From contig JBFMAG010000134.1 of the NCBI GenBank assembly GCA_040755895.1, forward strand, positions 1 to 38,544: DNA of 38,544 nucleotides. Direction: 5' to 3'. Shown here piece by piece: positions 2,241 through 17,812 of this stretch. The position numbers were made by a program, and so were the translations under genes. Under the pieces are notes generated by a model. The model did no database searches, was not told the origin of the DNA, and saw nothing but the letters and a program-made list of their open reading frames with translations. Source of the DNA: Actinomycetota bacterium. Lineage in GTDB: Bacteria > Actinomycetota > Aquicultoria > Subteraquimicrobiales > Subteraquimicrobiaceae. Within the stretch, counting starts at the first letter, position 1, and the number at the start of each line of letters is the position of its first letter.

Positions 2241-2245
2241 GGTAA

Positions 2246-3943
2246 TTATAGGATGAGATTGAGTAGGCTTCCCACCAGGATAGCACCAACTATCATTATC
2301 CCCGCGGATTTCATCATATCTTTTACTCCCAATTCTCTAAAGAGAACCGCAAAGGTAGCCACGCAGGGAAAGTACATGGTTAGTACCACGCTGGCAATGA
2401 TGAGTTGCTTCATGGTCAAGCCAAGGGGCAATAACATCCCCACCGCTACGTCTTTGCGGAGGAATCCAATGATCAAAGCGGCGGCGGTCTCTTTAGTAAG
2501 ACCCAAAAGTCCCACTATCACCGGTGAAGCTATTCTTCCGACAAAATCAATTACTCCCAAGGTGTACAGAACATTAGCAATAAATACCCCCAGCAGTACA
2601 TAGGGAACCCCTTCCCTCAAAAAATATTTTATTCGCATCCACAGCTTTTTTAAGAGAGCTCCCCAGTATGGAATTCGATAAGGCGGAATTTCTAAAAATA
2701 TTTCTGGGCTTTCCCCTTTAAGAAGTTTATCCAGTAAGGTACCGAGGATGACCCAGACTATAAAAAGAGTGACAAAAACTATTCCTAAACCCTGGGGTCC
2801 ATATTTACCCACCAATCCAACAACAACAGCCAACATAGCTGTGCAAGGAATACAAATTGCCGTTAACGTAGCAGCAATGAATCTTTGTCTCCTCGTTTCT
2901 AAAATTCTTGTGGCTAAAATTCCTGGAACATTACACCCCAAACCGAGCAACATGGGGATTATTGCAGAACCGTGTAACCCCAATCGATGCATAACATTGT
3001 CAATTAACACAGCCAAACGCGGGAGGTAACCGCAATCTTCCAAGAAGCTTAAAGTCAAATAAAAAGAGAATACGTAAGGCAAAACCATTGCAAAAGGAAC
3101 GAACAAGCCCGTGGTGAGGACCCCCATGGACTGAGTGTAGTCAATCTCCCCTTTTATTAAAGTTCCGATCAGGATGTCGTGCAGAAATCCAGGTCCTAGC
3201 AGCTGACTTATTTTCATAGCCAGTGGTGTATAGAGTTCAAATAGAGGCTCAAATACGTATCCGATTAATCCTTCACCGATGAATCTTGTGATTTGAAAAG
3301 CAAGATACATGACGAGTATGGAGAGAGGAATTCCCGTTACAGGCTTGATGCTCAAATCCCCGAGTTTTTCCAAAGGAGTGTGATGGCGATGGGTGACGCT
3401 TTGAACCTGTGCTATCATCTTTCCAATGTCTCCCCACTTTTCGTGGTCAGTACTTCTATAAACTGAAATCCTTGCATGTGGCAAGCGGGAGACTAGTTCC
3501 TTGATTCCTTCACCGGTGACAGCAACGGTGGGGACTACGGGTACCCCCAAAAGTTTCTCAAGCTTTTTTACATCGATCTTTATCCCTATGTGCTTAGCTT
3601 CATCCCAAAGATTAAGTGCCATGATTAAGGGCACCTTCTTCTCTATGAGTTGAAGCGTGAGGTACAAGTTCCTTTCTAAATTTGTAGCATCAACGACCTG
3701 GATAACCACATCTCCCTCATGCAACATCTCCACAGCTACTTCTTCCGCTTTTGAAACGGGTTCAAGAGTATACGTCCCCGGTACGTCTATGACCTCTGCC
3801 CTCTCCCCATTGAGCTTCATGGTGCCCTTGGTGAATTCCACTGTGGTACCGGGATAATTGGAGGCGATGACATCGGTTCCCGTTAACCTAGAAAAAATGA
3901 CACTTTTGCCAACGTTGGGGTTCCCCATGAGGAGTATCCTCAT
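2246..3943 (-). CDS. feoB: Ferrous iron transporter FeoB
   Basis: 565-aa ORF. The N-terminal G-domain has MRILLMGNPNVGKSVIFSRLTG (G1), DVPGTY (G3) and NLWD (G4). A polytopic membrane domain follows. There is a 4-nt ATGA overlap with feoA. Confidence 0.95.
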   Translation of the reverse strand: MRILLMGNPNVGKSVIFSRLTGTDVIASNYPGTTVEFTKGTMKLNGERAEVIDVPGTYTLEPVSKAEEVAVEMLHEGDVVIQVVDATNLERNLYLTLQLIEKKVPLIMALNLWDEAKHIGIKIDVKKLEKLLGVPVVPTVAVTGEGIKELVSRLPHARISVYRSTDHEKWGDIGKMIAQVQSVTHRHHTPLEKLGDLSIKPVTGIPLSILVMYLAFQITRFIGEGLIGYVFEPLFELYTPLAMKISQLLGPGFLHDILIGTLIKGEIDYTQSMGVLTTGLFVPFAMVLPYVFSFYLTLSFLEDCGYLPRLAVLIDNVMHRLGLHGSAIIPMLLGLGCNVPGILATRILETRRQRFIAATLTAICIPCTAMLAVVVGLVGKYGPQGLGIVFVTLFIVWVILGTLLDKLLKGESPEIFLEIPPYRIPYWGALLKKLWMRIKYFLREGVPYVLLGVFIANVLYTLGVIDFVGRIASPVIVGLLGLTKETAAALIIGFLRKDVAVGMLLPLGLTMKQLIIASVVLTMYFPCVATFAVLFRELGVKDMMKSAGIMIVGAILVGSLLNLIL

Positions 3944-4176
3944 TCCTCAATCTCCTCGACGAAGATTTTCATGGACATGCCCCTTCCCAAAGCAACTCGG
4001 GTACCATCAACCTCAACTACGATGGGTCCCCTCAAGGGCTCGGAGGCAACCTTTCGCACAATCTTTCCTACTCTCAAACCCAGAGCCGCTATTCTCCTCT
4101 GAAAACCGAATCCACCCATTATGCGTTTTATCTCCGCAGGTCTTTCAATTTCCAGTTCGTCCAAGGTTACCTCCAT
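3940..4176 (-). CDS. feoA: FeoA-domain protein
   Basis: 78-aa ORF with an SH3-like FeoA pattern (RRIAALGLRVGKIVRKV...GPIVVEVDGTRVALGRGMSMKIFV). It is translationally coupled to feoB. Confidence 0.85.
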   Translation of the reverse strand: MEVTLDELEIERPAEIKRIMGGFGFQRRIAALGLRVGKIVRKVASEPLRGPIVVEVDGTRVALGRGMSMKIFVEEIEE

Positions 4177-4242
4177 AATCTCACCTCGTAACCTCCTCTT
4201 CCTTCTTGAAATCCTTCGGATCCCCTACCGGTCTGTGAGACC

Positions 4243-4683
4243 TTAGATTTTCCGACATTTTGAACAATAACCATAGAATTCCAATTGGTGATCGATGATC
4301 TTAAACCCAAGCTTTCCGCTCAACTCCTTCTCAAGCTTGTCGACAGCTTCGAGCTTTGCCACAACTTGCTCATCAAATTCCTCGATACTTCCACATTTTA
4401 GACAAACCAAATGATGGTGATGCTCGGGGCTAATCTCATAATGTTGGTGCCCCTCACCAAAACCCAAACCATTGACGACTCCGAGCTTTTTCAGTAAATC
4501 TAGGGTGCGATAAACCGTAGCCAATCCAACTGGAGGGCATTCTCTATTTACCAAATGGTAAATTTCTTCAGCATCGAGATGCCCCTCAGCCAGACCTATG
4601 GCCTTTAGAATTCGAACCCTCTGTGGGGTGAGCTTAAATCCTTTCGATTTTAACTTCCTAAAATATTCATCTACTCTGTGCAT
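4243..4683 (-). CDS. fur: Fur-family metalloregulator
   Basis: 146-aa ORF. It has a winged-helix motif (LTPQRVRILKAI), an HHHxxC-x2-C motif (HHHLVCLKCG) and a C-terminal C-x2-C (CSKC). It lies upstream of feoAB. Confidence 0.9.
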   Translation of the reverse strand: MHRVDEYFRKLKSKGFKLTPQRVRILKAIGLAEGHLDAEEIYHLVNRECPPVGLATVYRTLDLLKKLGVVNGLGFGEGHQHYEISPEHHHHLVCLKCGSIEEFDEQVVAKLEAVDKLEKELSGKLGFKIIDHQLEFYGYCSKCRKI

Positions 4684-4713: not shown

Positions 4714-4760
4714 AAATTTTTACCATGTGGGTAGCCAAATGTCAACCAAGTATATGTAGC

Positions 4761-4848: not shown

Positions 4849-4991
4849 CCACATCTATGCTTATCACCCTACTTATCACCGCGTAGGTGATAATGGGGTT
4901 ATAGAAAATTTGTGTTGCCCGTATCTAAAATAATCTTCTTACGTTTTTATAAACGGAACAAAAAAGATCGAAATGAAAGGAGGCGCTAAGA

Positions 4992-5678: not shown

Positions 5679-5691
5679 TGGAAACCTCCAA

Positions 5692-7170
5692 TTAGACCCG
5701 AGGAGAAGGAAGAATAGTTGCAACAGAAACTATTCTTCCTTCATCCAACACCATTACTCTGTCACAGACCTTTGAGATCATCTCCGCATCATGAGATACT
5801 AAAACTATGGTTAAATCCTTCTTGAGTTCATTGAGCTTATCAACCAACATACGCATGTGGTATCCGTCCATGCCGCTGGTGGGCTCATCGAGGATCAGCA
5901 CTTCTGGTTTTCTCACAAGTGTTGAGGCTATTGTTACTCTTTGCTTCTGCCCCTCGCTCAAAGAATGAGGATGTCTATCCCTTAACTCCCAAAGACCCAT
6001 CATCTCAAGTGCATCTTTAACACGTTCTTTGATCCCTCTTTCGGGCAAATTCTGATATTTCAGTCCAAATGAAACCTCATTATATACGGTGTCCATGAAT
6101 AGTTGATGATCTGGATTCTGAAGGACCAATCCAACTTTCCTTGCCAACGTCGATACATCCACTTTGTGAGTATCGGTTCCGTCCACGATTACCTTCCCTC
6201 TCGTGGGTTTCAATAGACCAACGAAACACTTGACCAGCGTGGTCTTTCCAGAACCGTTTGAGCCCATTATTCCAATGGCTTCACCATCGTAAATCTCTGT
6301 ACTAACGTTCTCAATTGCAAATTCCTCTCCGTAGGAATAATGGAGATTCAGAACTTTAACTAAAGGATCTGCGGAATCACTCCGCTCGGAAAGGTTTGCC
6401 AGAGAAAACCCGGCTTTGGGACTACGAATACCGAATTTACGAACTTGATCCTTGAGCAAGATACTCGGCGAATCGATGAGCTTAATTTCCCCGGAATCCA
6501 TTATTATCACTTTATCTGCACATTTAATTGCATGATCTATTCTGTGTTCAATCAAAACTATCGTTTTCCCGCTTCTTTTCAAATCTTCTAGTACCTCAAA
6601 GAGCTCTTGAGTTCCTCTGGCATCCAAATTGGAAGTCGGTTCATCAAGGATTAAGATATCTGGGAACATCGAGAGATTCGCCGCAATCGCCACTCTCTGT
6701 TTTTGACCATCGGAGAGCTCAAAAACTGATTTCGATCTGGACTCTTTCATGCCCACACATTCAAGAGCCCAGTCCACCCTTCTTTCAAGGTCCTCTCTGG
6801 GTACTCCAAAGTTTTCTGGACCGAATGCCACTTCATTTTCAACTGTCAGAGTGAAAAGTTGAGATGTTGGATTCTGGAAAACCATGCCCACATGCCGAGC
6901 CAATTTCCAGATGGGATGTTTCCCAACCTCTTTTCCGTGAACCAGCACTCTGCCATTTATTTCCCCGCCAAAGAGATGTGGGATAAGCCCATTAATGCAC
7001 CTCACCAAGGTCGATTTCCCACAACCGCTTTTGCCAACAACTAAAACAAACTCTCCTCTTTCGATTTCCAGGTTAACATCCTTCAACGTGGGTTGATCGG
7101 AGTTAGGATAAGTGTATGTAAGATCCTCGATCACAATCACGGAATCCGTCACGGAATCAGCACTCTCCAC
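5692..7170 (-). CDS. ECF transporter ATPase, fused double ABC domain (EcfA-EcfA' / CbiO-like)
   Basis: 492-aa ORF. It has two Walker A motifs (GKSGCGKST, GSNGSGKTT), two ABC signatures (LSDGQKQRV, LSEGQKQRV) and two Walker B motifs (ILILDEPT, VLILDEPT). The start is GTG at 7170, or a GTGA stop/start overlap at 7152. Confidence 0.9.
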   Translation of the reverse strand: MESADSVTDSVIVIEDLTYTYPNSDQPTLKDVNLEIERGEFVLVVGKSGCGKSTLVRCINGLIPHLFGGEINGRVLVHGKEVGKHPIWKLARHVGMVFQNPTSQLFTLTVENEVAFGPENFGVPREDLERRVDWALECVGMKESRSKSVFELSDGQKQRVAIAANLSMFPDILILDEPTSNLDARGTQELFEVLEDLKRSGKTIVLIEHRIDHAIKCADKVIIMDSGEIKLIDSPSILLKDQVRKFGIRSPKAGFSLANLSERSDSADPLVKVLNLHYSYGEEFAIENVSTEIYDGEAIGIMGSNGSGKTTLVKCFVGLLKPTRGKVIVDGTDTHKVDVSTLARKVGLVLQNPDHQLFMDTVYNEVSFGLKYQNLPERGIKERVKDALEMMGLWELRDRHPHSLSEGQKQRVTIASTLVRKPEVLILDEPTSGMDGYHMRMLVDKLNELKKDLTIVLVSHDAEMISKVCDRVMVLDEGRIVSVATILPSPRV

Positions 7171-7892
7171 CGGTCAACGACTAAAAGTGCTATGGTTAAA
7201 ACCATCATCACAAGAAGGAAAACGTAATCATTTCTCCGAAATTTTATTTCCTTCAGCGTAGTTCTCTTATATGGAGCTCCAAATCCCCTTGTTTCCGTAG
7301 CCGCAGCCAGCTCATCAGATATTTTGATGGAGCGAATGGTTATTGGAATTATGATCCCTCTATAGTAACTTCCTGGCTGCTTTAGGATATCTCTCGCACA
7401 TAGTTTCAGCCCCTTCAGCCTCAATGAATCCAATATCGACGTAACTTCCTCCATAAGGGTGGGGACAAATCTTATGGTTGTAGTGAATATAAAAGTTATC
7501 GATGAAGGAACTTTCATTTTTTCCAGGGCTTTGGCTAAATCATTGGGTGAGGTGGTAAGGGCAAATAGCAATCCTGCACTGGTCATAGCGTACATCTTCA
7601 TACAAAATCTTCCTATGTAGGTCCAATCTTTGGTGAATATAAATCCAAAAATGGCAAGGATAACACCAATGAACCCAAATAATATCAGAAATCTTCTGGC
7701 CTCTTTAAATGTTTTGGAAAAATACAGACCGAATAGCAGAACAATAATTAGGATAATCAAGCACACGATGCTATCCACTACGAGACTGAGTATGGTGATT
7801 AAAAAGACCAAGCCCATTTTGGTTCTGGGATCCAATCCATGAATGGACGATTTCTTTGCCAAGAATCTCCCAAATTTGGATGTGGGTAGCAT
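7149..7892 (-). CDS. ECF transporter transmembrane (T) component, EcfT/CbiQ family
   Basis: I take the start at the ATG at 7892 (MLPTSKFGRFLAKKSSIHGLDPRTK...), 2 nt after the upstream stop. The protein is polytopic with the usual EcfT layout. The longer track ORF (to 8087) would overlap the S-component gene. Confidence 0.8.
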   Translation of the reverse strand: MLPTSKFGRFLAKKSSIHGLDPRTKMGLVFLITILSLVVDSIVCLIILIIVLLFGLYFSKTFKEARRFLILFGFIGVILAIFGFIFTKDWTYIGRFCMKMYAMTSAGLLFALTTSPNDLAKALEKMKVPSSITFIFTTTIRFVPTLMEEVTSILDSLRLKGLKLCARDILKQPGSYYRGIIIPITIRSIKISDELAAATETRGFGAPYKRTTLKEIKFRRNDYVFLLVMMVLTIALLVVDRWRVLIP

Positions 7893-7894
7893 CT

Positions 7895-8440
7895 TTATTG
7901 GATCACCCCAGCTTTTTTCAGCTCCCCTGATATGCTTGTTCCAATATACCCACCGGCGGCTCCCAAGATGGAGCAAACAGCAGAGATTGCAAGGATAACA
8001 AAAGGATTCATTATAGCTCTTGGAAAGCCGAAAAGTATCATCAAAATGAAAATGATCAAAGTTCCAGCAAAAACTTTGTTTGCACAAGCCAAGATGATCA
8101 ATTTCCTACTTGAGTAATCACCACGGAGGAGTTTCGTGATTATATCTCCGAATATCCCACCAATGGCCGATGAAGGGAATAAAATTGGCACAGCAGGGGA
8201 TATAAAACCATGGAAAAGCCCGGTTGTTATTCCGATGAGACTCAATGTTCCAACCTTTTTAACCTTAGCAAGTCCTATGGCGATCACGATGCTGCCAAAA
8301 AATCCCGCGGTCATTGATTTAAGACCGGGTGCACCTGGAGCGATTGCCGCTGCGGTCATATTCACCACCCAAACCACCACGATGGTCATCACACATATCA
8401 TGCCAATGAAGACAAGTTCTCTTCGGTCAAAATATTCCAT
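7895..8440 (-). CDS. Putative ECF substrate-binding (S) component, specificity unknown
   Basis: About 181 aa from the ATG at 8440, with AAAGGAGATG upstream. It has about 6 hydrophobic helices and sits directly upstream of EcfT/EcfAA'. It does not begin like CbiM/NikM. It may belong to the MptD/Trep_Strep-type S-component family, which I cannot verify. Confidence 0.5.
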   Translation of the reverse strand: MEYFDRRELVFIGMICVMTIVVVWVVNMTAAAIAPGAPGLKSMTAGFFGSIVIAIGLAKVKKVGTLSLIGITTGLFHGFISPAVPILFPSSAIGGIFGDIITKLLRGDYSSRKLIILACANKVFAGTLIIFILMILFGFPRAIMNPFVILAISAVCSILGAAGGYIGTSISGELKKAGVIQ

Positions 8441-8545
8441 GACATCATCTCCTTTCGGAAAAATAAAAGACCACAAAGATTCCCCGGTTTTCAAACCGAT
8501 TTTGAGACCTTCGTAGTCCCATTAGAAAAATTAATTTAGAACTGC

Positions 8546-11500
8546 TTATAGCTTCTCTTCTATCCAACCTTCGATTTCCAAGTATGCCCCCTTTAATTTC
8601 TCAATTTGTTCATCGGTGGCATCCCAGTAACCTCGCTTGTTCGCCTCAAGCAACCTGTTGACTATTTCTGCGGTGGCGAAGCGGTTATTTTCCGCCATTC
8701 GTTTTCGCATTTCCTCATCGAAGATATAGCGTTCAGCGATCCCACTCCATATCCAGTTGTCCACACGATTGGTGGTCGCCGCCAAGCCCAGTACATATTC
8801 CACTCTGTCCGCAATCTTCTGAGCACCGTGGAAGTCGTGTTTCAACATCCCATCGATCCACTTTGGATTGAGAAGTCTGGCTCTCACCCCTCTCTCAATG
8901 GCATCCTCCACATTCTCGGTTTTTATAATCTCTTTTGTGGTGTCGGAGATGAGCATCTCCGGTTTTTTGCCACTTGTGGTTTCAACTGCCTTGGACAGTC
9001 CTCCAAAGAACTCGTAGTAATGGTCGAGCTCTATTATCTCGTATTCATGCGTGTCTCTTACCTGGGAGACCAATTCCACCTTTGAGAGCATCGCCTTTAA
9101 AACCTTTTCCGCTTCAACAGCGTGAAGATTATAACCGTAAGCATGTTTCATGCTTGAGATGTACACCTTACCTATGGTCTTCTCCTCCTTCCAGTTCGAC
9201 GTCTCAATGAGATTGGTCACCCTTGTGGCATACTGGGCGGCGCTCGGTCCATAGATTCTAGCATTTGCCATTTTCTCCCTATGCTCAACTCCAGGCTCAA
9301 TCTCCTCTAGGATTTCCGTGGAGTGTTTCTTAACATAATTCATATTCTCGCTCTCATCTAAGGATGCAACCAGGTTGAAGGCCTCATCCAACAACTTGAT
9401 AACATTCGGGAATGTGTCTCTGAAGATGCCGCAGATGGTCACCAGGACATCTATTCGGGGACGACCCAGTTCCTCAAGGGGGATAACTTTTAATCTCTTA
9501 TCCCAAACTGAGCCAATTGGTCTCACGCCGATGTATCTCAGTATCTGACCGATTGTTTCGCCTCTGGTCTTCATGGTCTCAAAGCCCCAAAGGACTACCC
9601 CTACGCTCTCCGGATATCCGTGAATATGACGATACCGTTTAAGCGTATTTTCGGCTATCTCTGAGCCACGCTCATAAGCAGCATCGCTGGGGACCATCCG
9701 GGGATCGAATTGAAAGGTATTGCTACCCGTGGGAAGAACATCGGGGGTGCGTATGGGATCTCCCCCAATGTTTGGATAAGTATACCTCCCTTCCAAGGCG
9801 TGGATGAGACCTCCAAGCTCATCTCCCCTCCTATAGTCCTCGATGACTTTCAGCCCAAACTTCAAAGTTTTCTCAAGCTCAAAGGTTAGATCCTTCGATA
9901 CTTCAACCGACTTCAAAGCATCATTCAGCGATTCAAACAGTACCTTCCTCGCGAGATCTCTTGCCTTGGATTCGATATCCTCCAAAATTTGGGCATATGT
10001 CTTTCCCCCCAAAGACTCGCCAGGATTCTTCATCGCCCAATCATAATTTATACCTTGAGATTCAAGGAGTATCCGATGGAGTGATTTAATCTCCCCCCTA
10101 TCGTAACGAAGAATGAAGGTGAGGAACTCAACCAATCCATCGTCATCGTATTTTTCGCCCATTATATGCAAGCCCTTAGGGATAATGGATCGTTTAATCT
10201 CAAATATTTCACTGTGAATTTCCTCTATGGATTCGCTCCGGAAATTCAGTTCTTTGGTAACTTTGAGGATTTGCTCCTCGACCCTCTGAGCTCTGAGCGG
10301 ATCTTGAACCCTCGCCTCATTATATTCGGCGATCAAATCATCCAGTTTCGAAAGTTCATCGTAGAGACTGGAAGAGGTAAATGTGGGAGTCATGTGATTA
10401 ACGATGGTGGCGTAACTTCTCCTCTTGGCGATGGTTGCCTCCGAGGAGTTGGTAACCCAATAGATATAAATATGGGGCAGATTCCCAATCAAGTTATCGG
10501 GAAAGCATTCCCGGGAGAGCCCAATCTCTTTCCCAGCGGTGAATTCCAGAGTTCCGTGAGTACCCACGTGAACAACGGCATCAGCTTTGAATTCGTTCTC
10601 TAACCACTTATAGAAGGCAATATACTGGTGATGTGGTGCCAGAGCTTTATCGTGATACGCCTTCTCAGGATTCTCATGAACACCCCTGGATGGTTGAATG
10701 CCCACAAAGATATTTCCGAATTCGATGCCCGGGATGAGTAGCCTACCATTGTGGACCATCACATTTCCCGGGGGAGAACCCCAGTCACGGATCACCGATT
10801 CTTTGATGCTTTCGGGAAGCTCATCAAACCATTTGGAATACGTGGGGCGATCAATATTTATGAGATTGGCTATCAACTTTTTCTGAGCAATCCATTTGCC
10901 AGAGTTTACTACCGACTGCTCTAAAAATAGTTCATGTAAGGATTTTTCCGGCAAGTCACCCACACTATAACCTTCCTTTTTTAATCTCTGTAATATCCTT
11001 TTCATGCTTTCAAATACATCGAGATAAGCGGCACTGCCCAGATTGTCTTCACCCGGTGGATAATTGAATATGATGAAGGCAATCCTCTTATTGGAATTCC
11101 TTTTTCCGTGAAGCTTCACCCAATTCAAAACTCTTTGCGCCATTCTTTCAATGCGATCATCAATGGGCAGAATGGTCTTCACTCTGCCTTCGATATTCCG
11201 GTCGTATCCGACCTCAGCGAGACCACTCGATGGTATTGGCTCAATAATTCCATCGAGTTCAGGAAGGGTAACGGCGGTGACGACCTCCAGGGGGGATAGA
11301 CCGATCTCTGAAGCTTTCCACTTTTGAATCTCCCGCATGAGCATGGGTGTGCCGTCAAAGACGGGTACATCGAGGTTCTGCAGAGTATCTAAAGTGACCT
11401 GTGGATCTCCACCGAGAGGTCCTCCATTAAGTCTAAACCATCGAAAGCTGACCACGGCATCGACGATGGGTTTCCCATTCTTGTAGAAAAACTCCTTGAT

Positions 11501-12319
11501 ATCCTTGCAACCTTCCATGGAACTTGAAAAAGTTGGAATGATATTGGCGTAGGGTTTTAGCTTTTCCATGAGGGCCTTGATGCCCACATAGCACTCCTCA
11601 AGATGCATGCCTCCGAAAGAAAGCATTCCCACGGTATATGGTTTCTCGAGTTTATGATCCCGTAGATAAGCATCCAAGGTACCATAAAACTTTTGTTCAA
11701 AGGGATCGTAGATTCCCTCTTCGGGATACTCTATTGGAGGATTGAGTTTAACCTTGACCCTATTTTTTCCGTAATTTTTAACGATGAAAAGCAATAGGTT
11801 CTTTATATTCTCCGTTCCGCCATTGCTCCAGTATTTCATGGCAATTATCCAATTTCTGGCGTGCTTTAAGAAACCGAGGGGAAGAATTTTGCCCATCTTA
11901 TCGATCATGTTCGAGATTTTCTGAATCTTTTTATAATCAATGCCGGTGGTTTTCCTGCGTTGCATGATCTTATCCATGGAGAATGACCCCATCCTGGTGA
12001 GGCTCAATACGTACTCCGATCCTCCACAGAGCACGATCACGGTATTCTTTGTACTGGAGAGTGTCTCGGAAACAATCTTTGAGGGACGCCCTCCGCCCCT
12101 AATGTCGATGAGCACGATATCCGCGTTCTGTAGATTCTTCCCTAAGGTGCTATCCTCCACTAATTCTTCTTCAATCTCGTGCCAGTTGTATAGCCTCACT
12201 TTGATGATGTCCCCATATTCTTCCCTGATCTGTTGCAGGGCTTCGGATATCCACTTCGACATGGAAGTCGACGTAAGTATCGCCGTGATCCTTGTGGGCA
12301 CCAGTTCAGGCAATTTCAT
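8546..12319 (-). CDS. cobN: CobN-family class-I chelatase large subunit
   Basis: About 1257 aa from the ATG at 12319, with a GGGAGG SD (the track ORF begins 2 codons earlier at TTG). Size and blocks are typical of CobN/BchH: HHQYIAFYKWL, VHVGTHGTLEFTAGKE, GDPIRTPDVLPTGSN and RPRIDVLVTICGIFRD. Confidence 0.9.
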   Translation of the reverse strand: MKLPELVPTRITAILTSTSMSKWISEALQQIREEYGDIIKVRLYNWHEIEEELVEDSTLGKNLQNADIVLIDIRGGGRPSKIVSETLSSTKNTVIVLCGGSEYVLSLTRMGSFSMDKIMQRRKTTGIDYKKIQKISNMIDKMGKILPLGFLKHARNWIIAMKYWSNGGTENIKNLLLFIVKNYGKNRVKVKLNPPIEYPEEGIYDPFEQKFYGTLDAYLRDHKLEKPYTVGMLSFGGMHLEECYVGIKALMEKLKPYANIIPTFSSSMEGCKDIKEFFYKNGKPIVDAVVSFRWFRLNGGPLGGDPQVTLDTLQNLDVPVFDGTPMLMREIQKWKASEIGLSPLEVVTAVTLPELDGIIEPIPSSGLAEVGYDRNIEGRVKTILPIDDRIERMAQRVLNWVKLHGKRNSNKRIAFIIFNYPPGEDNLGSAAYLDVFESMKRILQRLKKEGYSVGDLPEKSLHELFLEQSVVNSGKWIAQKKLIANLINIDRPTYSKWFDELPESIKESVIRDWGSPPGNVMVHNGRLLIPGIEFGNIFVGIQPSRGVHENPEKAYHDKALAPHHQYIAFYKWLENEFKADAVVHVGTHGTLEFTAGKEIGLSRECFPDNLIGNLPHIYIYWVTNSSEATIAKRRSYATIVNHMTPTFTSSSLYDELSKLDDLIAEYNEARVQDPLRAQRVEEQILKVTKELNFRSESIEEIHSEIFEIKRSIIPKGLHIMGEKYDDDGLVEFLTFILRYDRGEIKSLHRILLESQGINYDWAMKNPGESLGGKTYAQILEDIESKARDLARKVLFESLNDALKSVEVSKDLTFELEKTLKFGLKVIEDYRRGDELGGLIHALEGRYTYPNIGGDPIRTPDVLPTGSNTFQFDPRMVPSDAAYERGSEIAENTLKRYRHIHGYPESVGVVLWGFETMKTRGETIGQILRYIGVRPIGSVWDKRLKVIPLEELGRPRIDVLVTICGIFRDTFPNVIKLLDEAFNLVASLDESENMNYVKKHSTEILEEIEPGVEHREKMANARIYGPSAAQYATRVTNLIETSNWKEEKTIGKVYISSMKHAYGYNLHAVEAEKVLKAMLSKVELVSQVRDTHEYEIIELDHYYEFFGGLSKAVETTSGKKPEMLISDTTKEIIKTENVEDAIERGVRARLLNPKWIDGMLKHDFHGAQKIADRVEYVLGLAATTNRVDNWIWSGIAERYIFDEEMRKRMAENNRFATAEIVNRLLEANKRGYWDATDEQIEKLKGAYLEIEGWIEEKL

Positions 12320-12357
12320 CACCAACCTCCCACGAAGTTCATGGTATTATCGCTTTC

Positions 12358-13458
12358 TCATCGAACATTTTTGCTAGCATCTGCAGATTGGTTGAAGTTG
12401 CGCGGATCAGGTGAGTGCTCGCCAATTAAGGTCCCTTCTAACCTCCCTTGATCTATGCCGAATTCTTCAAAGGGCTTGCGTCTCATCCGGTGAAGCAGAG
12501 CTAAATCGGCGCCTTCCCTCACGTCCTCCTCCGTGACTTGGGTGCGCCCGTGGAAAGCCGCGGTGGTCTTGGCAACTTTCATCATGGTGATATCTGCCCT
12601 GTGACCGTGAACCTTCATCTCAACGGCAATTTCGGCGATGAGTTTGAGCATCTCTTCCGAAATTTCCACTCCATCCAGAATCTTCTTGGCAGAGATGATC
12701 TTCTTTCTCAATTCCTCTTGAGCCCCCTCCCACTCAGAGGCAAAGGCTATGGGATCATCCTCATAACTGGAACGTCGCTTGACTACCTCTACCCTCAAAT
12801 CTGGGTCAGCGATTCCTTCAATTTTCACACACAGTCCAAAGCGATCCAGAAGCTGCGGTCTCAATTCTCCCTCCTCAGGGTTCATCGTTCCCACCAAGAT
12901 GAAGTGGGCTGGGTGGGAGTAGGATACACCCTCCCTTTCGACTGTATTCACTCCCATAGCCGCTGAATCCAGAAGGACATCGACGATGTGATCGTCGAGA
13001 AGATTGACCTCATCCACATAGAGTATTCCCCGATGAGCCTCAGCCAAAACTCCTGGCTCAAAGCGCTTCTCGCCTCGCTTTATAGCGTACTCTATATCAA
13101 GGGTGCCAACTACCCTATCCTCGGTGGCACTCACGGGCAGATCTATCACCCGCATCTTTCTGAGAATCGTCTCAAACTTTCCTCCGTGATTGAATCTCTC
13201 CAAACATCTTTCACACATCTCATTTTTATCACGCGGATTGCAACCGTAGGGACAATCCTTGACCACCTCAATTTCAGGAAGAAGATCAGCGAGGGCTCTT
13301 ACGGCGGTGGACTTTGCGGTGCCTTTCTCGCCACGTATCAGAACCCCGCCTATCTTGGGATTTATAGCGTTGAGGATCAGCGCCATTTTCATCTTCTCTT
13401 GACCAACGATCGCCGTAAATGGATAAATTACCTTCTCATAACAGGACATTATCCTCAC
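12358..13458 (-). CDS. ChlI/BchI-like AAA+ chelatase ATPase subunit
   Basis: 366-aa ORF. It has [21 protein letters not shown], a Walker A (GEKGTAKS), a Walker B ([10 protein letters not shown]) and [18 protein letters not shown]. There is a Cys4 insert (CPYGC...CERC). The start is GTG at 13458 or ATG at 13449. Confidence 0.9.
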
Positions 13459-13471
13459 CTTCTCCTTAAAG

Positions 13472-15472
13472 TTATTGGAGCATCTCTTTTATCACCTGTA
13501 CTATGCTTGAAGCTCTGAGATCCTCCAGTCTAAAGTATTGTCCACCCAGGGCTTGAGCCAACTCCTCAGCCAAACCAAAGTTTATGAATCCATTAGCTTC
13601 GGCGTCGATCACCAAACTTTTTACCCTCTCTTCGGTTCTAATCACCGAAGCCACTCTCAAAGCCTCGGTGAAGGGATCGTCCTCTCCGATGCTCACATTG
13701 GCTTTTCCATCGGTGATTACCACCAGCAGGGGTGAGATGTTTGGATCCTTTCGGAGGTGATTTTTTGCCACCTTATGAGCCAAAGCCAATCCACGGGAGA
13801 GAGGTGTCCTGCCACCCGTGGGTAGCTCTTCCAGCCTCTTTTGAGCTAACTCCACACTGCTGGTCGGAGGGAGCAAGATTTCAGCAGCGCTTTTTCTGAA
13901 AGTCACCATTCCCACCTTATCCCTTTTCTGATAGGCATCCAGTAGCAGGGATAAAATCGCCCCCTTGGCCTCGATCATTCTCCTGTTTGCACCCATGGAG
14001 CCACTGGCATCGACGACGAAGAGAAGGAAATTGCCTATCCTTTTTTCTCTGATCTTTTCCCGAATATCCTCCGTCTCAATGGCGATCGCCAGATCATTTC
14101 TCTTTCGTCTCAGCTGGTACGGTGCCGCCGCTCTCAAGGTAGCATCAAGAGCTATGTCGCCGCTCATTCTGACCTCGGTCGATTTAACATAGCGTCCCGA
14201 TTTTGATGCCGTCTTGGTGCGGCTCCTGCGTCCCGAGCCCCTCCGAAGGATTCCATCCCGTCCGTGCTCAATGCGGCGAACTGGGAATGGTTTTCCTACG
14301 GCGAATACAATTTCCTGGATGAGACGAGGGGAACCATCTTGGCTCTGGGGACGAGATGGTGGCTTCTTGTGCTCTCTCTGTTCCTTTTGTTCCTCTCTAT
14401 CCTCCTCTCTATCCTCCTCCCTCTCCTTCCGATTCTGCTCCTCACGATGAGGAGGCTCTGGTGGAGGTTGCTGCTTACGAAGTGGAGGAACCTCTCTCAT
14501 TCGATGGGGCAAAACCAACTCCGCCGCCTCGAAGATTTCTTCTTCCCCAACCTCATTTTGACTCTTTAGGGCGGCGATTGTCCGAGCGGTCATATCCATG
14601 ACGACATCGGCTCTGTGTCCAGCGACGCAATTTTCCAAACAGATGCGGGCTATGAGCTTAAGGGAATCGGAGGATATCATCACATCCTCTAATCTTTCTT
14701 GGGCGGCGAAGATTTGCTCCGTTAACCTCTTCTGCTCAGGTCTCCATTTCTCGATAAAGGCTTCTGGGTCCACATCATATTCCTCACGCCTCTTGATGAG
14801 CTCCACCCGTTGCTCTGGATCGCTTATCCCCTCGATCCTCACGCAGAGACCGAAGCGATCCAGAAGCTGCGGTCTCAATTCCCCCTCCTCGGGGTTCATC
14901 GTTCCCACCAGGATGAAGTGGGCGGGGTGGGAATAGGATACACCCTCCCTTTCGACTTCATTGATACCCATAGCCGCCGCGTCGAGTAGGACATCGACAA
15001 TGTGATCGTTAAGCAGGTTTACTTCGTCCACATAGATGATGCCTCTGTTTGCCAGAGCCAAGAGTCCGGGCTCAAAGCGCTTCCTGCCTTCCCTTATGGC
15101 GTATTCAAAGTCGATGCTTCCCACTACCCTATCCTCGGTGGCGCTCACCGGCAGTTCCACGACCCAAACTTTCCTCTTCCTGCTGGGCAAACTTTTGTCG
15201 AGAAAGATTCTTTCCTTACATTCGGGGCACACTTTGGAAAGATCATGTGGGTCACAGCTATAGGGACAGCCTTCGACGACTTCTATTTCGGGCAATAGAT
15301 CAGCGAGTCCCCGAACAGCGGTCGATTTGGCAGTTCCTTTATGACCTCTGATCAATACCCCGCCTATCTTGGGATTTATGGCGTTGAGGATCAGCGCCAT
15401 TTTCATCTTCTCTTGACCCACGATCGCCGTAAATGGATACACCGAGTCCCTAAAACAGCTCAAACCCTTCAC
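13472..15472 (-). CDS. ChlD/BchD-like chelatase subunit (AAA+ module, Pro/acidic linker, vWA domain)
   Basis: 666-aa ORF with a GTG start. The N-terminal 330 aa are paralogous to the ChlI-like gene and retain Walker A (GHKGTAKS). The linker reads [37 protein letters not shown]. The C-terminal vWA/MIDAS region reads [12 protein letters not shown]...[10 protein letters not shown]. Confidence 0.9.
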
Positions 15473-15553
15473 CTCTCATTTAGAAGTTGCATCTGCTATC
15501 CCTAACCTCACCAGCTAAGTCTGCCACATGAGCATTTTAAAGAATGGGTTCTT

Positions 15554-15713
15554 TGGTCAAAATAATTTTGTTTAGAAAATTTCTCAAACTTTCCGCTATG
15601 CTGGGGCAGGCAGAAGCCCCTCAAATCCCTGCCTGCCCGTGCAGCACCGCGGATCCAGAGGATATGAGGTGTCTGCCTGCACCCCACGGACTGGCAAGAC
15701 AAATAAAAAACCA
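15554..15713 (-). promoter_or_regulatory. Copy 1 of the duplicated promoter/leader module (upstream of the ChlD-ChlI-CobN-ECF operon)
   Basis: About 97% identical to 23424-23581 by eye (1 substitution, 3 small indels). On the minus strand it contains TTGAGA (15587-15582), a 17-nt spacer and TATTTT (15564-15559). It also has a perfect 10-bp GC dyad, GGGCAGGCAG (15604-15613) and CTGCCTGCCC (15629-15638), with a 15-nt spacer. Confidence 0.5.
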
Positions 15714-15753
15714 CGAAAACCCCACCTTCGACCAGGTCTAAAACCTTCGTGGT
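15704..15753 (-). terminator. Rho-independent terminator-like hairpin
   Basis: Minus strand: ACCACGAA...TTCGTGGT stem (8 bp, structured ~28-nt loop) followed by TTTTTTATTT. The homologous hairpin is at 23572-23623. Confidence 0.5.
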
Positions 15754-15811
15754 CTCAGTTACAAACATCATGTATAGCCTTATTTGCAAATCCTTATTCC
15801 CAAATCCAACT

Positions 15812-15864
15812 AAAAAAAGACCAAAAAGCTCCAACCTTCGGGTTAGAATAGACCTTCGTGGTCT
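15812..15864 (-). terminator. Rho-independent terminator-like hairpin (second, tandem)
   Basis: Minus strand: AAGACCA...TGGTCTT stem followed by TTTTTTT. The loop again contains CGAAGGT motifs. Confidence 0.45.
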
Positions 15865-15961
15865 TACTTCACTGTTTATATTCGACGGATATTTTAAATT
15901 TCCTTCTTAAAAATTGATATCTTTTGCTGTGTACTACTTATACAAATTTGTGGAATCCGGT

Positions 15962-16078
15962 TTACAACAGGCAGACATCTGTCCACTTACAGAGATGTTC
16001 CTTAAAAACTGCGGGAAATTGGGAAATGACCTCCCAAATTTTAGAGGCGGGTGTAACATTCGCGAATTTACCTGCCAT
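15962..16078 (-). pseudogene. Remnant copy of the last 38 codons of the ribokinase-like gene at 24060-24941
   Basis: Minus-strand translation is MAGKFANVTPASKIWEVISQFPAVFKEHLCKWTDVCLL*. The C-terminus of the 293-aa protein is MAGKFANVTPASKIWEVISQFPAVFKEYLCKWTGICLI*. There is no SD, and it starts 12 nt after the DUF2149-like stop. Confidence 0.6.
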
Positions 16079-16090
16079 GTCTACTTAAAT

Positions 16091-16426
16091 TTAAGGGCTG
16101 ACCAGGATTAGCTTGCCGGTCTTGGAATCTTTATATACTACTCCCATTTCCTCATATCCCTCACCGGTTCCTGATACCAGCGGTGGGGGAGTTTTAATTT
16201 CTTTCCCCTTCTCTATCTTGACTATCTTTTTAATTGCCTCCACCATTCTTCTTCTTTCTTCCAAAGAAGTATCTTTAAAAATCACATTCTGGAGATTCCA
16301 GGAGAGAACAAGCATTACAATTAAGCCACAAGCAAAGACCAGCATGGCATCTACCAGGTTAGCCACTCCCGACATAGGATTAATATCTTCTTCTAATCGG
16401 GGCAAAATCTTCCGCTTTCTTGCCAT
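16091..16426 (-). CDS. Small single-TM ExbD/TolR-like protein (DUF2149-like)
   Basis: 111-aa ORF with a GGAGGTG SD 9 nt upstream. The N-terminus (INPMSGVANLVDAMLVFACGLIVMLVL) resembles DUF2149 as I recall it. It overlaps the end of the MotA/ExbB-like gene by 47 nt. Confidence 0.6.
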   Translation of the reverse strand: MARKRKILPRLEEDINPMSGVANLVDAMLVFACGLIVMLVLSWNLQNVIFKDTSLEERRRMVEAIKKIVKIEKGKEIKTPPPLVSGTGEGYEEMGVVYKDSKTGKLILVSP

Positions 16427-17051
16427 TTTCCAACACCTCCAGTAAAGGATCTATCAAAGCTTCCAGGGTGCTTATGTGTTCTTCGTACCATCTTTTTCTA
16501 ATCTTAGAAATGGTATAGCCAATGCAACCTGCTGCCAATCCAACAATAGTAGTATCAAAAGCAATGATGACGGCTTGAGCCAAAGTGTGAACATCTCCTC
16601 TTCCCAATGCTGCAAGACCTGGACCCAAAGGAATTAGAGTTCCCATCAACCCCAAAGCAGGACCCCAGCGGGCAAGCATATCAGTCTTTTCAAGCGTTTG
16701 AGCTGCTTTGAGCTCTTCTTCCTCAATCAACTTTCGAGCCAAGGCATTTAGGGAATCATTGGTCAAATAGTTATGAGAGACTATTTTCTCCAGGATGTTT
16801 TTCTGATTTTGTGAAAGGGTGTTGGCAGAAATCGCTTCTCTTATCTCATTTGTGTTGTGCAGTTTCTTAATTATTTCTCCAATTTCTTCACTGCTTACTT
16901 TTGTTCTTTGTGAATATTCCGAAACTAGACTCCCTAACTCAATAACACCAAAAGTTATGCAGATAAGTAGCCCTATAATATCGGGGATGAGTAAGCTTTG
17001 TGAAATTAAATGTAAAGCCTTGCTTAAGAATTCACTTCCTGGAACAATCAT
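16380..17051 (-). CDS. MotA/TolQ/ExbB-family proton channel protein
   Basis: 223-aa ORF with a GGAGGAG SD. It has an N-terminal TM helix, a cytoplasmic helical region, and then the conserved channel segment ARWGPALGLMGTLIPLGPGLAAL...AFDTTIVGLAAG. Confidence 0.85.
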   Translation of the reverse strand: MIVPGSEFLSKALHLISQSLLIPDIIGLLICITFGVIELGSLVSEYSQRTKVSSEEIGEIIKKLHNTNEIREAISANTLSQNQKNILEKIVSHNYLTNDSLNALARKLIEEEELKAAQTLEKTDMLARWGPALGLMGTLIPLGPGLAALGRGDVHTLAQAVIIAFDTTIVGLAAGCIGYTISKIRKRWYEEHISTLEALIDPLLEVLENGKKAEDFAPIRRRY

Positions 17052-17101
17052 AAGAATCGCTCCTCCATTTCTTCAGAGTGACCCTGAGCATAGTCGAAGG
17101 G

Positions 17102-17803
17102 TCACCTCAATATACTTTTCTTTCTTGATTTATAAAAACCTAATACCCCCAGAAATATTACAAATACCACACCGGCTAGGGATGCTTTAATTGATGGGAT
17201 GGTCAAAGGGCTCATCTTAAACTTTTGTAAAGTTGGAATATTGGGCATGATTATAGCCGAAGCTAAAAAGTAAAAACCAACAAAAAGCATTAGGTTTCCT
17301 AAAAGAACAGGGTAGGGTTTCCTGGTCAATTTCACAATTCCTTCAGATAAAAGGTAAGTAGTAAGGATGGTTACTCCCAGGACAAGAGCGGTATACTTGC
17401 CTAAGATTGCTGAGGACACGCCAATAACCGGAGAGGCGAGACCAATTGTCAACAGAACCGAAGCATAACAACAGGGACAAGGAGCAGCAAGAGCCAGACA
17501 GCAAGTAGCTGCTTTATTTTTCCCGTGAACCTTCCACTCCCTGAGCGTATGGAGCCCGGCCCCAAATATAATTAGAGACATAATCATGAAGATAAGGTAA
17601 TTGTAGGTAGAAGCTAATTTATGAAGGAGATTTAAGTGCTTTGAGACCACAATTACCAGCCCCAACAAGGCTAGAGAATATATACACGTAATAAGAATAG
17701 CTATTCTCCTGGAAAGTCCGCTAAACCCCAGAGCAAGTCCTATTTTTATTCCAAAGATTATGGTGGCAGAGAGGATGCCTATCCTCCAAAGCATTGAAAT
17801 CAT
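17102..17803 (-). CDS. Polytopic membrane protein with intramembrane CC-x6-PCPCC motif (DUF2162-like predicted transporter)
   Basis: 233-aa ORF with about 6-7 hydrophobic helices. The motif is AATCCLALAAPCPCCYASV (17468-17503). A GAGGAGG SD is present. The DUF2162 assignment is from memory. Confidence 0.55.
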   Translation of the reverse strand: MISMLWRIGILSATIIFGIKIGLALGFSGLSRRIAILITCIYSLALLGLVIVVSKHLNLLHKLASTYNYLIFMIMSLIIFGAGLHTLREWKVHGKNKAATCCLALAAPCPCCYASVLLTIGLASPVIGVSSAILGKYTALVLGVTILTTYLLSEGIVKLTRKPYPVLLGNLMLFVGFYFLASAIIMPNIPTLQKFKMSPLTIPSIKASLAGVVFVIFLGVLGFYKSRKKSILR

Positions 17804-17812
17804 TGAGCTAGT

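What the first reader, a model, noticed from the sequence alone, without database searches (positions are those of the whole stretch)
5692..15472. ATP-dependent class-I chelatase (ChlD-like, ChlI-like, CobN) in one operon with a complete ECF importer of unassigned specificity
Seen in the sequence: six co-directional genes are separated by gaps of 13, 32 and about 105 nt, then 2 nt, then an overlap. I saw no terminator between them. The S component does not resemble CbiM/NikM.

Established:
- CobN works with AAA+ partners.
- In genomes lacking cobST, chlID-type genes next to cobN are thought to substitute.
- ECF importers carry vitamins, corrinoids or Ni/Co.

Inference: the ECF module imports either the metal or the tetrapyrrole/corrinoid substrate of this chelatase. 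That would make it a salvage or remodelling unit rather than part of de novo synthesis. No other cob/cbi/hem biosynthetic genes are nearby.
Basis: partly seen in the sequence, partly recalled or inferred. Interest (0 to 1): 0.6.

Follow-up and report, generated by a model that had tools for sequence, protein, structure and literature searches.

The report
Chelatase operon with built-in tetrapyrrole importer
An uncultivated groundwater bacterium carries a strain-specific operon, shared with methanogens, that joins a chlorophyll-type ATP-driven metal chelatase to its own vitamin-style importer. It most likely takes up haem or a similar metal-ring compound to strip out the metal, which would give a large orphan enzyme family a testable job.

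Summary
The six co-directional genes are real, at the stated coordinates and with the stated gaps. Two details need correcting:
- The large subunit is ChlH/BchH-type, not canonical CobN.
- The 105-nt gap before the S gene holds a terminator-like hairpin.

The S component belongs to a rare subclade of the MptD/Trep_Strep family, which has no assigned substrate. Its link to the chelatase is strongly conserved:
- All 10 Methanobacteriales loci I inspected read ChlD–S–T–AA'–ChlH.
- S occurs in 15 of the 18 genomes that have this ChlH orthologue, and in 0 of the other 133.
- Three further gene orders occur on bacterial contigs.

Sister S components sit in anaerobic haem-utilisation loci (TonB receptor, ChuW/HutW, HutX, flavodoxin, then S–T–AA'). 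The host makes its own haem, cannot build corrin rings and has no chlorophyll pathway. Two genus mates lack the operon. Its leader is copied from the neighbouring HmuS-like operon, and it lies beside Fur and FeoB.

Best reading (0.45): the ECF module imports a metallo-tetrapyrrole, with haem first and a nickel ring second. The ATP-driven chelatase complex then strips the metal. Substrate, metal and reaction direction are inferred, not shown. Earlier notes of this scan describe the same architecture on other DNA (e1-2521372, e1-1387243). I found no paper describing it.

The parts
13472..15472 (-). ChlD-like subunit: AAA+ module, acidic/Pro-rich linker and VWA domain with MIDAS
   Evidence: Pfam VWA_2, AAA_lid_2 and Mg_chelatase. 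TIGR02442 'putative cobaltochelatase' scores 842.6 bits against a cut-off of 779. Walker A GHKGTAKS, Walker [11 protein letters not shown] and MIDAS DASGS can be read.
12358..13458 (-). ChlI-like AAA+ subunit, a lineage-specific duplicate of the AAA+ half of the ChlD-like gene
   Evidence: It is 66% identical to ChlD residues 1-329 with no gaps. BchI-ChlI scores 450.8 bits, just under the 467 cut-off. The methanogen operons have no separate I gene.
8546..12325 (-). ChlH/BchH-type large (ring-binding) subunit; cytoplasmic; likely ATG start at 12319
   Evidence: PF02514 scores 1197 bits and DUF3479 is present. It passes the BchH model and fails the CobN model. PDB scores: ChlH 665 bits, CobN 506, HmuS 389. 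It keeps the HxGTHG motif, the Glu equivalent to ChlH E660, and the DHxxEFxGG motif.
8441..8545 (-). Spacer holding a terminator-like nested hairpin and U-tract of the same repeat family as the leader hairpins
   Evidence: Fold energy -27.3 kcal/mol, with a long stem plus an inner hairpin, then UUUUAUUUUU. The motif is shared with positions 15743, 15852 and 23613.
7895..8440 (-). ECF S component (181 aa) of a rare MptD/Trep_Strep subclade
   Evidence: Pfam PF09605 scores 37.9 bits against GA 28.7. The AF2 model has pLDDT 94.4 and six helices. The best PDB fold match is the ECF S component 5edl, TM 0.71.
7149..7892 (-). ECF T component (247 aa)
   Evidence: PF02361 CbiQ scores 91.6 bits. The ATG lies 2 nt after the S stop codon, and two xRxxG-type coupling motifs are visible.
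5692..7170 (-). Fused A-A' ECF ATPase (492 aa)
   Evidence: Two ABC_tran domains. TIGR04520 ECF_ATPase_1 scores 454 bits against a cut-off of 315. The gene overlaps the end of the T gene.
15552..16079 (-). 5' leader copied from the region upstream of the neighbouring HmuS-like operon
   Evidence: 15753-15552 is 94.6% identical over 205 nt to 23623-23422. 16079-15961 is 90.8% identical to 24177-24059.
16091..23395 (-). Context: HmuS-like exported giant with DUF2162, MotA/ExbB-like and DUF2149 genes (hmuSTUV-like), under the parent copy of the leader
   Evidence: Pfam. Best PDB match is the HmuS dechelatase 9d26. Genus mates that lack the ChlH-ECF operon still have this cluster.
1449..4683 (-). 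Context: Fur-family regulator, FeoB and DUF364/DUF4213 ('heavy-metal chelation')
   Evidence: Pfam. FeoB passes TIGR00437 (381.6 bits, cut-off 315.7). The regulator's best hit is Fur at 132.5 bits, below cut-off. The block is syntenic in genus mate G002.

Best explanation
The six genes form one import-and-process unit with two modules.
1. A dedicated group-I ECF importer (S, T and fused A-A'). Its S component belongs to a rare MptD/Trep_Strep subclade and carries a metallo-tetrapyrrole into the cytoplasm. Haem is the leading candidate and a nickel ring compound is the runner-up.
2. A complete AAA+-driven class-I chelatase of the ChlH/BchH type: ChlD-like, a duplicated ChlI-like subunit, and the large ring-binding subunit. 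This complex acts on the imported ring.

The most likely action is ATP-powered removal of the metal. That would be an oxygen-independent alternative to ring opening by ChuW/HutW, and a cytoplasmic counterpart of the exported HmuS dechelatase encoded next door.

The operon is an accessory metal-scavenging cassette. It sits between Fur-FeoB and the hmuSTUV-like operon and is probably co-regulated with the latter through a duplicated leader.

Shown: gene content and families, conservation of the linkage, the contexts of the S clade, the pathways missing from the genome, and the leader duplication. Inferred: the substrate, the metal and the direction of the reaction.
For: 1. Linkage.
- All 10 Methanobacteriales loci inspected read ChlD-S-T-AA'-ChlH. 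Each protein is 34-49% identical to the window's.
- S occurs in 15 of 151 sampled genomes. All 15 are among the 18 that carry the full-length ChlH orthologue.
- The other 3 of those 18 have ChlD-ChlH adjacent with no ECF genes, so the ECF genes behave as a cassette inserted into the chelatase operon.
- Bacterial contigs give three more gene orders: TonB receptor-ChlH-S-T, ChlH+ChlD divergent from S-T-AA', and ChlD-S-T-AA'-ChlH.

2. Substrate class.
- A 21-member S clade (FastTree SH-like support 90) holds the window's S together with S components that directly follow ChuW/HutW (489.6 and 500.3 bits, cut-off 400), HutX (186 bits, cut-off 110) and a flavodoxin, behind TonB-dependent receptors whose best or second-best NCBIfam match is the haem/haemoglobin type, below cut-off.
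- No His, Cys or internal Met is invariant in the S clade, and S has no CbiM/NikM match.

3. The large subunit is porphyrin-type, with ChlH scoring above CobN and HmuS.

4. It is not biosynthetic. The genome is 97.8% complete. It has HemA, HemE and ferrochelatase, but no CbiC, no BchM and no ChuW/HutW over cut-off.

5. Context.
- Fur-like regulator and FeoB lie downstream and an HmuS-like operon lies upstream.
- The leader is a 94.6% copy of the HmuS-like operon's leader.
- The operon was not found in 2 genus mates or in 400 sampled genomes of the phylum.

6. Published precedents.
- HmuS is a haem dechelatase (PMC12583661).
- LhaSTA is a haem ECF importer (PMC7299338).
- In T. denticola, cobN and a chlD/I gene lie next to an iron-compound ABC importer (PMC12724145).
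Against: - No experiment or transcript data bear on this operon.
- The active-site motifs are superfamily-wide and do not indicate direction or metal.
- HmuS works without AAA+ partners and needs NADH and the membrane fraction (PMC12583661), so an ATP-driven reverse reaction has no precedent.
- The haem-linked S components are only 20-28% identical to the window's. They fall in the sister subclade on a FastTree tree with many unresolved forks.
- There are nickel signals. A NikR-type box (GTGTTAC-N13-GTAATAC) lies upstream of the TonB receptor-rSAM-S-T-AA' cluster on L002-L004, whose S (P0006) is 43% identical to the window's and in the same subclade.
- In M. marburgensis a CobN paralogue rises about 300-fold under nickel limitation, not iron limitation.
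- The host makes its own haem. Methanobacteriales use no haem, so for them haem could only be a source of iron.
- The internal hairpin may uncouple transcription of the two modules.
Confidence: 0.45

Rival explanations
1. Forward chelatase on a salvaged ring. The ECF imports a metal-free or wrongly metallated porphyrin or corrinoid precursor. ChlH-I-D then inserts a metal (Co, Ni, Fe, Mg or Zn) to make a usable cofactor.
For: All characterised AAA+-partnered class-I enzymes run forward. The ChlD-like protein passes the 'putative cobaltochelatase' model TIGR02442. The genome has CobS, a late corrinoid step, so it salvages corrinoids. One methanogen locus has CbiZ and an MtrA paralogue beside the operon.
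Against: The genome already has a ferrochelatase and a haem pathway. It has no chlorophyll pathway and no corrin-ring pathway. Free-base rings are rare outside cells. Sister S components serve haem-degrading enzymes, not biosynthetic ones. No cobalamin riboswitch was found in the window or in 10 related loci.
Confidence: 0.2
2. Nickel-starvation device. The unit is induced when nickel is scarce. It imports a nickel-bearing macrocycle or metallophore (for example F430-like material) and frees the nickel. The mechanism is the same as in the best explanation but the metal differs.
For: A NikR-type box with one mismatch to the published consensus lies upstream of the TonB receptor-rSAM-S-T-AA' operon on L002-L004, whose S (P0006) is 43% identical to the window's and in the same subclade. 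In M. marburgensis, CobN1 rises about 300-fold and the transporter MTBMA_c10530, next to ChlD-like genes, about 40-fold under Ni limitation but not Fe limitation. The leader is shared with the HmuS-like operon. Unverified leads from earlier notes of this scan: e1-5628598, e1-2885686, e1-1387243.
Against: I could not identify the M. marburgensis orthologue of this ECF operon in the proteome tables. The window's flanking genes are Fur-like and FeoB, not nikR. No NikR-type box was found in the window's leader or in 21 other upstream regions. The repeated hairpin also follows a thioredoxin gene cluster elsewhere in the genome, so it may be an ordinary terminator.
Confidence: 0.18
3. The ECF imports the free metal ion (Ni2+, Co2+ or Fe2+) that the chelatase inserts.
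For: ECF Ni/Co importers are often clustered with their consumers. The T and A components score on 'cobalt' models.
Against: S has no CbiM/NikM match and no CbiN/NikN-type partner gene lies among the six genes. The clade has no invariant His, Cys or internal Met. Relatives sit behind TonB receptors and haem-degradation genes.
Confidence: 0.05
4. The two modules are neighbours only, with no shared function.
For: A terminator-like hairpin separates them. The closest ChlH homologue (59% identical) has no ECF genes in view.
Against: The cassette lies inside the chelatase operon in 10 of 10 methanogen loci. The co-occurrence pattern is 15 of 18 against 0 of 133.
Confidence: 0.03

Closest known systems
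Mg-chelatase ChlH/ChlI/ChlD (BchHID)
   Same: Three-subunit AAA+-driven class-I architecture. The large subunit passes the BchH model, has the head domain, and is closest to Synechocystis ChlH (4zhj). The D subunit has the linker and a MIDAS-bearing VWA domain.
   Different: The host has no chlorophyll pathway (no BchM over cut-off) and is a non-phototrophic anaerobe. The I subunit is a recent copy of the D subunit's AAA+ half. An importer is built into the operon. The reaction may run in reverse.
HmuS haem dechelatase and the hmuSTUV module (B. thetaiotaomicron, P. gingivalis; PDB 9d26; PMC12583661)
   Same: Same superfamily. The proposed role is the same: taking the metal out of an acquired metalloporphyrin without oxygen. 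An HmuS-like operon lies next door under the same leader.
   Different: HmuS is exported or membrane-anchored, has no AAA+ partners and depends on NADH and the membrane fraction. The protein here is cytoplasmic, ChlH-like (only 389 bits to HmuS) and paired with ChlI/ChlD and an ECF importer.
LhaSTA, the haem-specific ECF importer of Staphylococcus lugdunensis (PMC7299338)
   Same: A dedicated S-T-A ECF system proposed or shown to import haem as a metal source. It is embedded in a metal-acquisition locus.
   Different: I could not test a sequence relationship because LhaS is not within reach of the tools. LhaSTA is paired with Isd haem-binding proteins, not with a chelatase.
ChuW/HutW-HutX anaerobic haem degradation loci (PMC10114669, PMC10404700)
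   Same: Sister S-T-AA' cassettes sit directly after ChuW/HutW, HutX and a flavodoxin. The chelatase here occupies the position of the haem-processing enzyme.
   Different: ChuW opens the ring by radical SAM chemistry. Here a chelatase-type complex would leave the ring intact. The window's genome has no ChuW/HutW.
CobN-CobS-CobT / CobN-ChlID cobaltochelatase (TIGR02257, TIGR02442)
   Same: Class-I chelatase. The D-like subunit passes TIGR02442.
   Different: The large subunit fails the CobN model. The genome has no CbiC, so it makes no corrin-ring substrate. No B12 riboswitch was found.

Membership tests
Mg-chelatase (BchH/ChlH with I and D) | Large subunit scores above the curated BchH cut-off and has the N-terminal head domain | tested here: met
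   TIGR02025 scores 1029.6 bits against a cut-off of 829. DUF3479 is present.
Mg-chelatase (BchH/ChlH with I and D) | Acts in a (bacterio)chlorophyll pathway, so BchM/ChlM should be present | tested here: not met
   No BchM-ChlM hit over cut-off in a 97.8%-complete genome; the best is 36 bits against a cut-off of 158.9.
Aerobic-type cobaltochelatase CobN | Large subunit scores above the CobN equivalog cut-off | tested here: not met
   TIGR02257 scores 739.9 bits against a cut-off of 822.05. All NF00464x CobN models are also far below their cut-offs.
Aerobic-type cobaltochelatase CobN | The genome makes the corrin-ring substrate (CbiC/CobH step) | tested here: not met
   No PF02570 match in the genome. 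Only the late gene CobS is present.
HmuS haem dechelatase | Closest characterised relative is HmuS, and the protein is exported or membrane-anchored with HmuTUV partners | tested here: not met
   HmuS scores 389 bits against 665 for ChlH. I saw no signal peptide or TM helix on reading the sequence, with no prediction tool run. The HmuTUV-like genes belong to the other paralogue.
HmuS haem dechelatase | Catalytic His of the HxG(T/A)HG motif | tested here: met
   HVGTHG is present. The motif is superfamily-wide, so it does not discriminate.
Group-I (dedicated) ECF transporter | S, T and A-A' genes adjacent, with an S-component fold | tested here: met
   AF2 model pLDDT 94.4. Foldseek best match is ECF S component 5edl, TM 0.71, followed by RibU and ThiT.
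MptD/Trep_Strep S components (PF09605/TIGR02185) | Score above the curated thresholds | tested here: inconclusive
   Pfam scores 37.9 bits, above GA 28.7. NCBIfam scores 31.8 bits, below the 76.45 cut-off. Atlas neighbours are MptD clusters. This is a divergent member.
CbiMN/NikMN metal S components | CbiM fold family match with a CbiN/NikN partner | tested here: not met
   No CbiM-family hit for S in the Pfam scan, and no CbiN/NikN-type partner gene among the six genes.
CbrT cobalamin S component | Detectable sequence similarity to the solved ECF-CbrT | tested here: not met
   The S-clade profile searched against all PDB sequences gave only one spurious hit at E 0.17.
LhaS haem S component | Sequence or family relationship to LhaS | not testable with these tools
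   The LhaS sequence is not in reach, and the paper names no family.

The most novel reading that the evidence does not exclude
ChlH-type class-I chelatases with their AAA+ motors run backwards in non-phototrophic anaerobes (methanogens, Asgard archaea, this actinobacterium). They would act as ATP-driven cytoplasmic dechelatases that recover iron or nickel from imported metallo-tetrapyrroles. The ECF cassette inserted between chlD and chlH would be their dedicated feeder. The whole unit would be a mobile import-and-strip module shared across domains.
Probability: 0.3. Interest if true: 0.8.

Novelty: new variant of a known kind. Interest (0 to 1): 0.62.

Why it matters
Hundreds of 'magnesium chelatase H' and 'CobN' genes in non-photosynthetic anaerobes have no known role: 934 homologues at E<1e-50, from Asgard archaea, ANME, methanogens, Bacillota and Thermodesulfobacteriota. 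The 2025 HmuS paper says explicitly that it is unclear what Archaea do with them (PMC12583661).

An importer built into the operon, whose closest relatives serve haem-degrading enzymes, points to a concrete substrate class and to simple experiments. If the complex proves to be an ATP-driven dechelatase, it would be a new reaction mode for a textbook enzyme family. It would also be a new route by which methanogens and subsurface bacteria obtain iron or nickel where sulfide locks those metals away.

Tried and rejected
- Riboswitches. Rfam found no cobalamin, NiCo or other riboswitch in the window, in either leader at relaxed thresholds, or in 10 related loci.
- S-clade profile against PDB sequences: nothing usable.
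- Tyr109 of S as a haem ligand. It is conserved in 16 of 21 clade members and replaced by Cys or His in two. Helix order and positive-inside charge place it in a cytoplasmic loop, so I dropped it.
- Active-site residues of the large subunit (E660 equivalent, HxGTHG, DHxxEF). All are conserved, but they are conserved across the whole superfamily, so they say nothing about metal or direction.
- Regulator boxes. Among 23 upstream regions scanned, the only clear hit was one NikR-type box, on L002. One 5-mismatch Fur-like match on L001 was disregarded.
- The repeated hairpin as a metal-specific switch. A fifth copy follows a thioredoxin gene cluster on contig C49, so it may be an ordinary terminator or repeat element.
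- M. marburgensis nickel- and iron-limitation proteomes. I could not find the orthologue of this ECF operon in the tables, so they bear only on paralogues.
- RNA-seq for operon continuity.
- The genome-contig scan with the S profile returned only 3 loci.
- No complex prediction was run.

Full report
**What is there.** On the minus strand of 5692-15472 lie six genes.
- ChlD-like protein (666 aa). It has an AAA+ module with intact Walker A and B, an acidic/Pro-rich linker, and a VWA domain with a DxSxS MIDAS. It passes TIGR02442.
- ChlI-like AAA+ protein (366 aa).
- Large subunit (1259 aa).
- ECF S component (181 aa from the ATG at 8440).
- T component (247 aa).
- Fused A-A' ATPase (492 aa).

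**Two corrections to the observation.**
- The large subunit is ChlH/BchH-type rather than CobN. It passes the BchH equivalog (1029.6 bits, cut-off 829) and fails the CobN equivalog (739.9 bits, cut-off 822). It has the ChlH-type head domain DUF3479. It is closest to Synechocystis ChlH among solved structures: 665 bits, against 506 and 471 for CobN and 389 for HmuS.
- The 105-nt ChlH-S spacer is not featureless. It folds into a long nested hairpin followed by a U-tract. It carries the motif AC[C/T]ACGAAGGT, which also marks three hairpins in the two leaders: 4 hits in the window against 0.03 expected. The consensus scan found no other convincing minus-strand terminator within the operon.

**The S component.** It is a divergent member of Pfam Trep_Strep, the MptD family (37.9 bits against GA 28.7; below the NCBIfam cut-off). 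It has no CbiM/NikM match. A confident model (pLDDT 94.4) has six helices and matches solved ECF S components best (5edl, TM 0.71).

The subfamily is rare. An exhaustive profile search of 1.84 billion representatives gave 118 hits at E<=1e-3 and only 4 at E<=1e-30.

**Is the linkage conserved? Yes, strongly.**
- In Methanobacteriales, S was found in 15 of 151 sampled genomes.
- All ten loci I pulled out read ChlD(ID-type)-S-T-AA'-ChlH. Every protein is 34-49% identical to its counterpart in the window.
- A full-length ChlH orthologue occurs in 18 of the 151 genomes. The 15 genomes with S are all among those 18, and none of the other 133 has S.
- The three exceptions have ChlD and ChlH adjacent with no ECF genes.

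So the ECF genes behave as a cassette inserted into a ChlD-ChlH core. Kin are not independent, so I treat this as a pattern and not a statistic.

Metagenomic contigs add more gene orders:
- the methanogen gene order ChlD-S-T-AA'-ChlH again, on two unassigned contigs and one Methanobacteriaceae MAG (L001, L005, L007)
- TonB receptor-ChlH-S-T
- ChlH+ChlD divergent from S-T-AA' (L016)

A genome of the same class (G018) has an unrelated ECF next to a CobN-like gene and a ChlD-like gene. That cluster has A-A' and T genes plus a 638-aa lipoprotein with a six-helix C-terminal domain.

**What does the S clade carry?** A FastTree of 106 family members puts the window's S in a 21-member clade (SH-like support 90) with two halves.
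- Half A holds the window, the methanogens, and a TonB receptor-radical SAM-S-T-AA' cluster (L002-L004).
- Half B holds the TonB receptor-ChlH-linked member and several members in textbook anaerobic haem-utilisation loci.

The half-B haem loci are:
- L015: FeoA genes, TonB receptor, ExbB-ExbD-TonB, ChuW/HutW (489.6 bits, cut-off 400), flavodoxin, S-T-A.
- L056: the same, plus HutX (186 bits, cut-off 110).
- L057: a HutW-like radical SAM enzyme and flavodoxins in a Bacteroidota-type locus.

ChuW/HutW releases iron from haem anaerobically, and a flavodoxin-family protein handles its product (PMC10114669, PMC10404700).

The S clade has no invariant His, Cys or internal Met, which argues against a bare metal ion as substrate. 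The same transporter clade is therefore paired with either ChuW/HutX or ChlH/ChlD. That is why I read the chelatase as the haem- or ring-processing enzyme.

**Why salvage and not biosynthesis.** The genome is 97.8% complete at 1.39 Mb. Earlier notes of this scan call it an uncultivated groundwater Actinomycetota; I did not test that.
- Present: HemA, HemE and a ferrochelatase.
- Absent over cut-off: CbiC, BchM and ChuW/HutW.
- The only two CobN-family genes in the genome are both in this window.

**History and regulation.**
- Two genus mates keep the neighbouring HmuS-like giant but lack ChlH and S. None of 400 sampled genomes of the phylum has S.
- In genus mate G002, the slot between Fur-FeoB and the DUF2149 gene holds a MacB-type ABC pair and a Mutator transposase instead.
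- The operon's leader is a copy of the region upstream of the HmuS-like operon: 94.6% identity over 205 nt and 90.8% over 119 nt. The two operons are therefore probably co-regulated.
- The ChlI gene is 66% identical, without gaps, to the AAA+ half of ChlD. The methanogen operons have only one ID-type gene, so the I/D pair here was re-created by a recent duplication.
- The closest large-subunit homologues (55-59% identical) come from Asgard archaea, ANME-1, Methanoliparia and several anaerobic bacterial phyla. There are 934 homologues at E<1e-50. The closest one has a ChlD-size neighbour but no ECF genes in view.

**Which metal?**
Iron is supported by:
- the haem-locus relatives of the S component
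- the Fur-like regulator and FeoB next door
- the HmuS-like neighbour
- precedent: HmuS; B. fragilis needs FeoAB and CobN-like BtuS1/BtuS2 for haem iron (PMC6460266); and the T. denticola cobN-chlD/I-iron ABC cluster (PMC12724145)

Nickel is supported by:
- a NikR-type box with one mismatch to the published GTGTTAC-N13/14-GTAACAC consensus (PMC545781), upstream of the L002-L004 cluster, whose S is 43% identical to the window's
- M. marburgensis proteomics, where CobN1 rises about 300-fold and the transporter MTBMA_c10530 about 40-fold under Ni limitation but not Fe limitation
- several unverified earlier notes of this scan

I could not find this operon's orthologue in those proteome tables. 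No operator was recognisable in the window's leader. A corrinoid substrate is least likely: the large subunit is ChlH-type, no B12 riboswitch was found anywhere, and only one methanogen locus has CbiZ and an MtrA paralogue nearby.

**Verdict.** The substrate is more likely the ring than the metal ion. The most economical mechanism is import of a metallo-tetrapyrrole followed by ATP-driven removal of its metal.

Substrate, metal and direction remain inferences. Overall confidence is 0.45, with haem-iron slightly ahead of nickel.

I found no paper in the held library that describes an ECF cassette inside a class-I chelatase operon. Earlier notes of this scan recorded the same gene order on other DNA (e1-2521372), and a related island (e1-1387243).

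Noticed in passing
window 12358-13458 vs 13472-14460: The ChlI-like gene is a recent duplicate of the AAA+ half of the ChlD-like gene: 66% protein identity over 329 aa with no gaps. Both copies carry a four-Cys insertion (CPYxC...CxxC) between Walker A and Walker B.
   Followed up: partly
window 8507-8517, 15743-15753, 15852-15862, 23613-23623; genome contig C49 near 190: A family of nested hairpins followed by a U-tract, with the motif AC[C/T]ACGAAGGT. It has five structured copies in the 1.39-Mb genome. Four are in this window. The fifth lies between a thioredoxin gene cluster and the next gene.
   Followed up: partly
L030 (G018:C37) 4246-18249: In a genome of the same class: beta-propeller protein, a 638-aa lipoprotein with a six-helix C-terminal (S-like) domain, A-A', T, a CobN-like gene split by one TAA, an ABC-2 exporter pair, and a ChlD-like gene. 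This is a second, unrelated ECF-chelatase island.
   Followed up: partly
L029 (G002:C33) 10315-13541: In the genus mate, the slot occupied here by the ChlH-ECF operon holds a MacB/FtsX-type ABC pair and a Mutator-family transposase. This marks a variable insertion site.
   Followed up: partly
L054 (G165:C1) 2555-19680: One Methanobacteriales genome flanks the ChlD-S-T-AA'-ChlH operon with CbiZ on one side. On the other side are an MtrA paralogue and a 2081-aa HmuS-like giant.
   Followed up: no
L046-L047 and L051-L053, L055 upstream of ChlD: In five to seven of the ten methanogen loci, depending on the gene, the operon is preceded by DUF763, response regulators (one with the methanogen output domain MetOD1) and PAS histidine kinases. 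A roughly 1200-aa PAS kinase follows ChlH in three loci.
   Followed up: no
L002 1505-1531 (also L003, L004): A NikR-type inverted repeat, GTGTTAC-N13-GTAATAC, lies about 490 nt upstream of a TonB receptor-radical SAM (BioB/HmdB-like)-S-T-AA' operon.
   Followed up: partly
window 15508-15834: The 108-aa ORF inside the duplicated leader has no family match and overlaps the copied non-coding block. It is probably not a gene.
   Followed up: no
M. marburgensis proteome tables (PMC12350162 supplement): MTBMA_c09030, next to cobN2, rises about 80-fold under Fe limitation. cobN3 lies beside feoA and feoB2, which are Fe-limitation induced. Different chelatase paralogues seem tied to different metals.
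   Followed up: no
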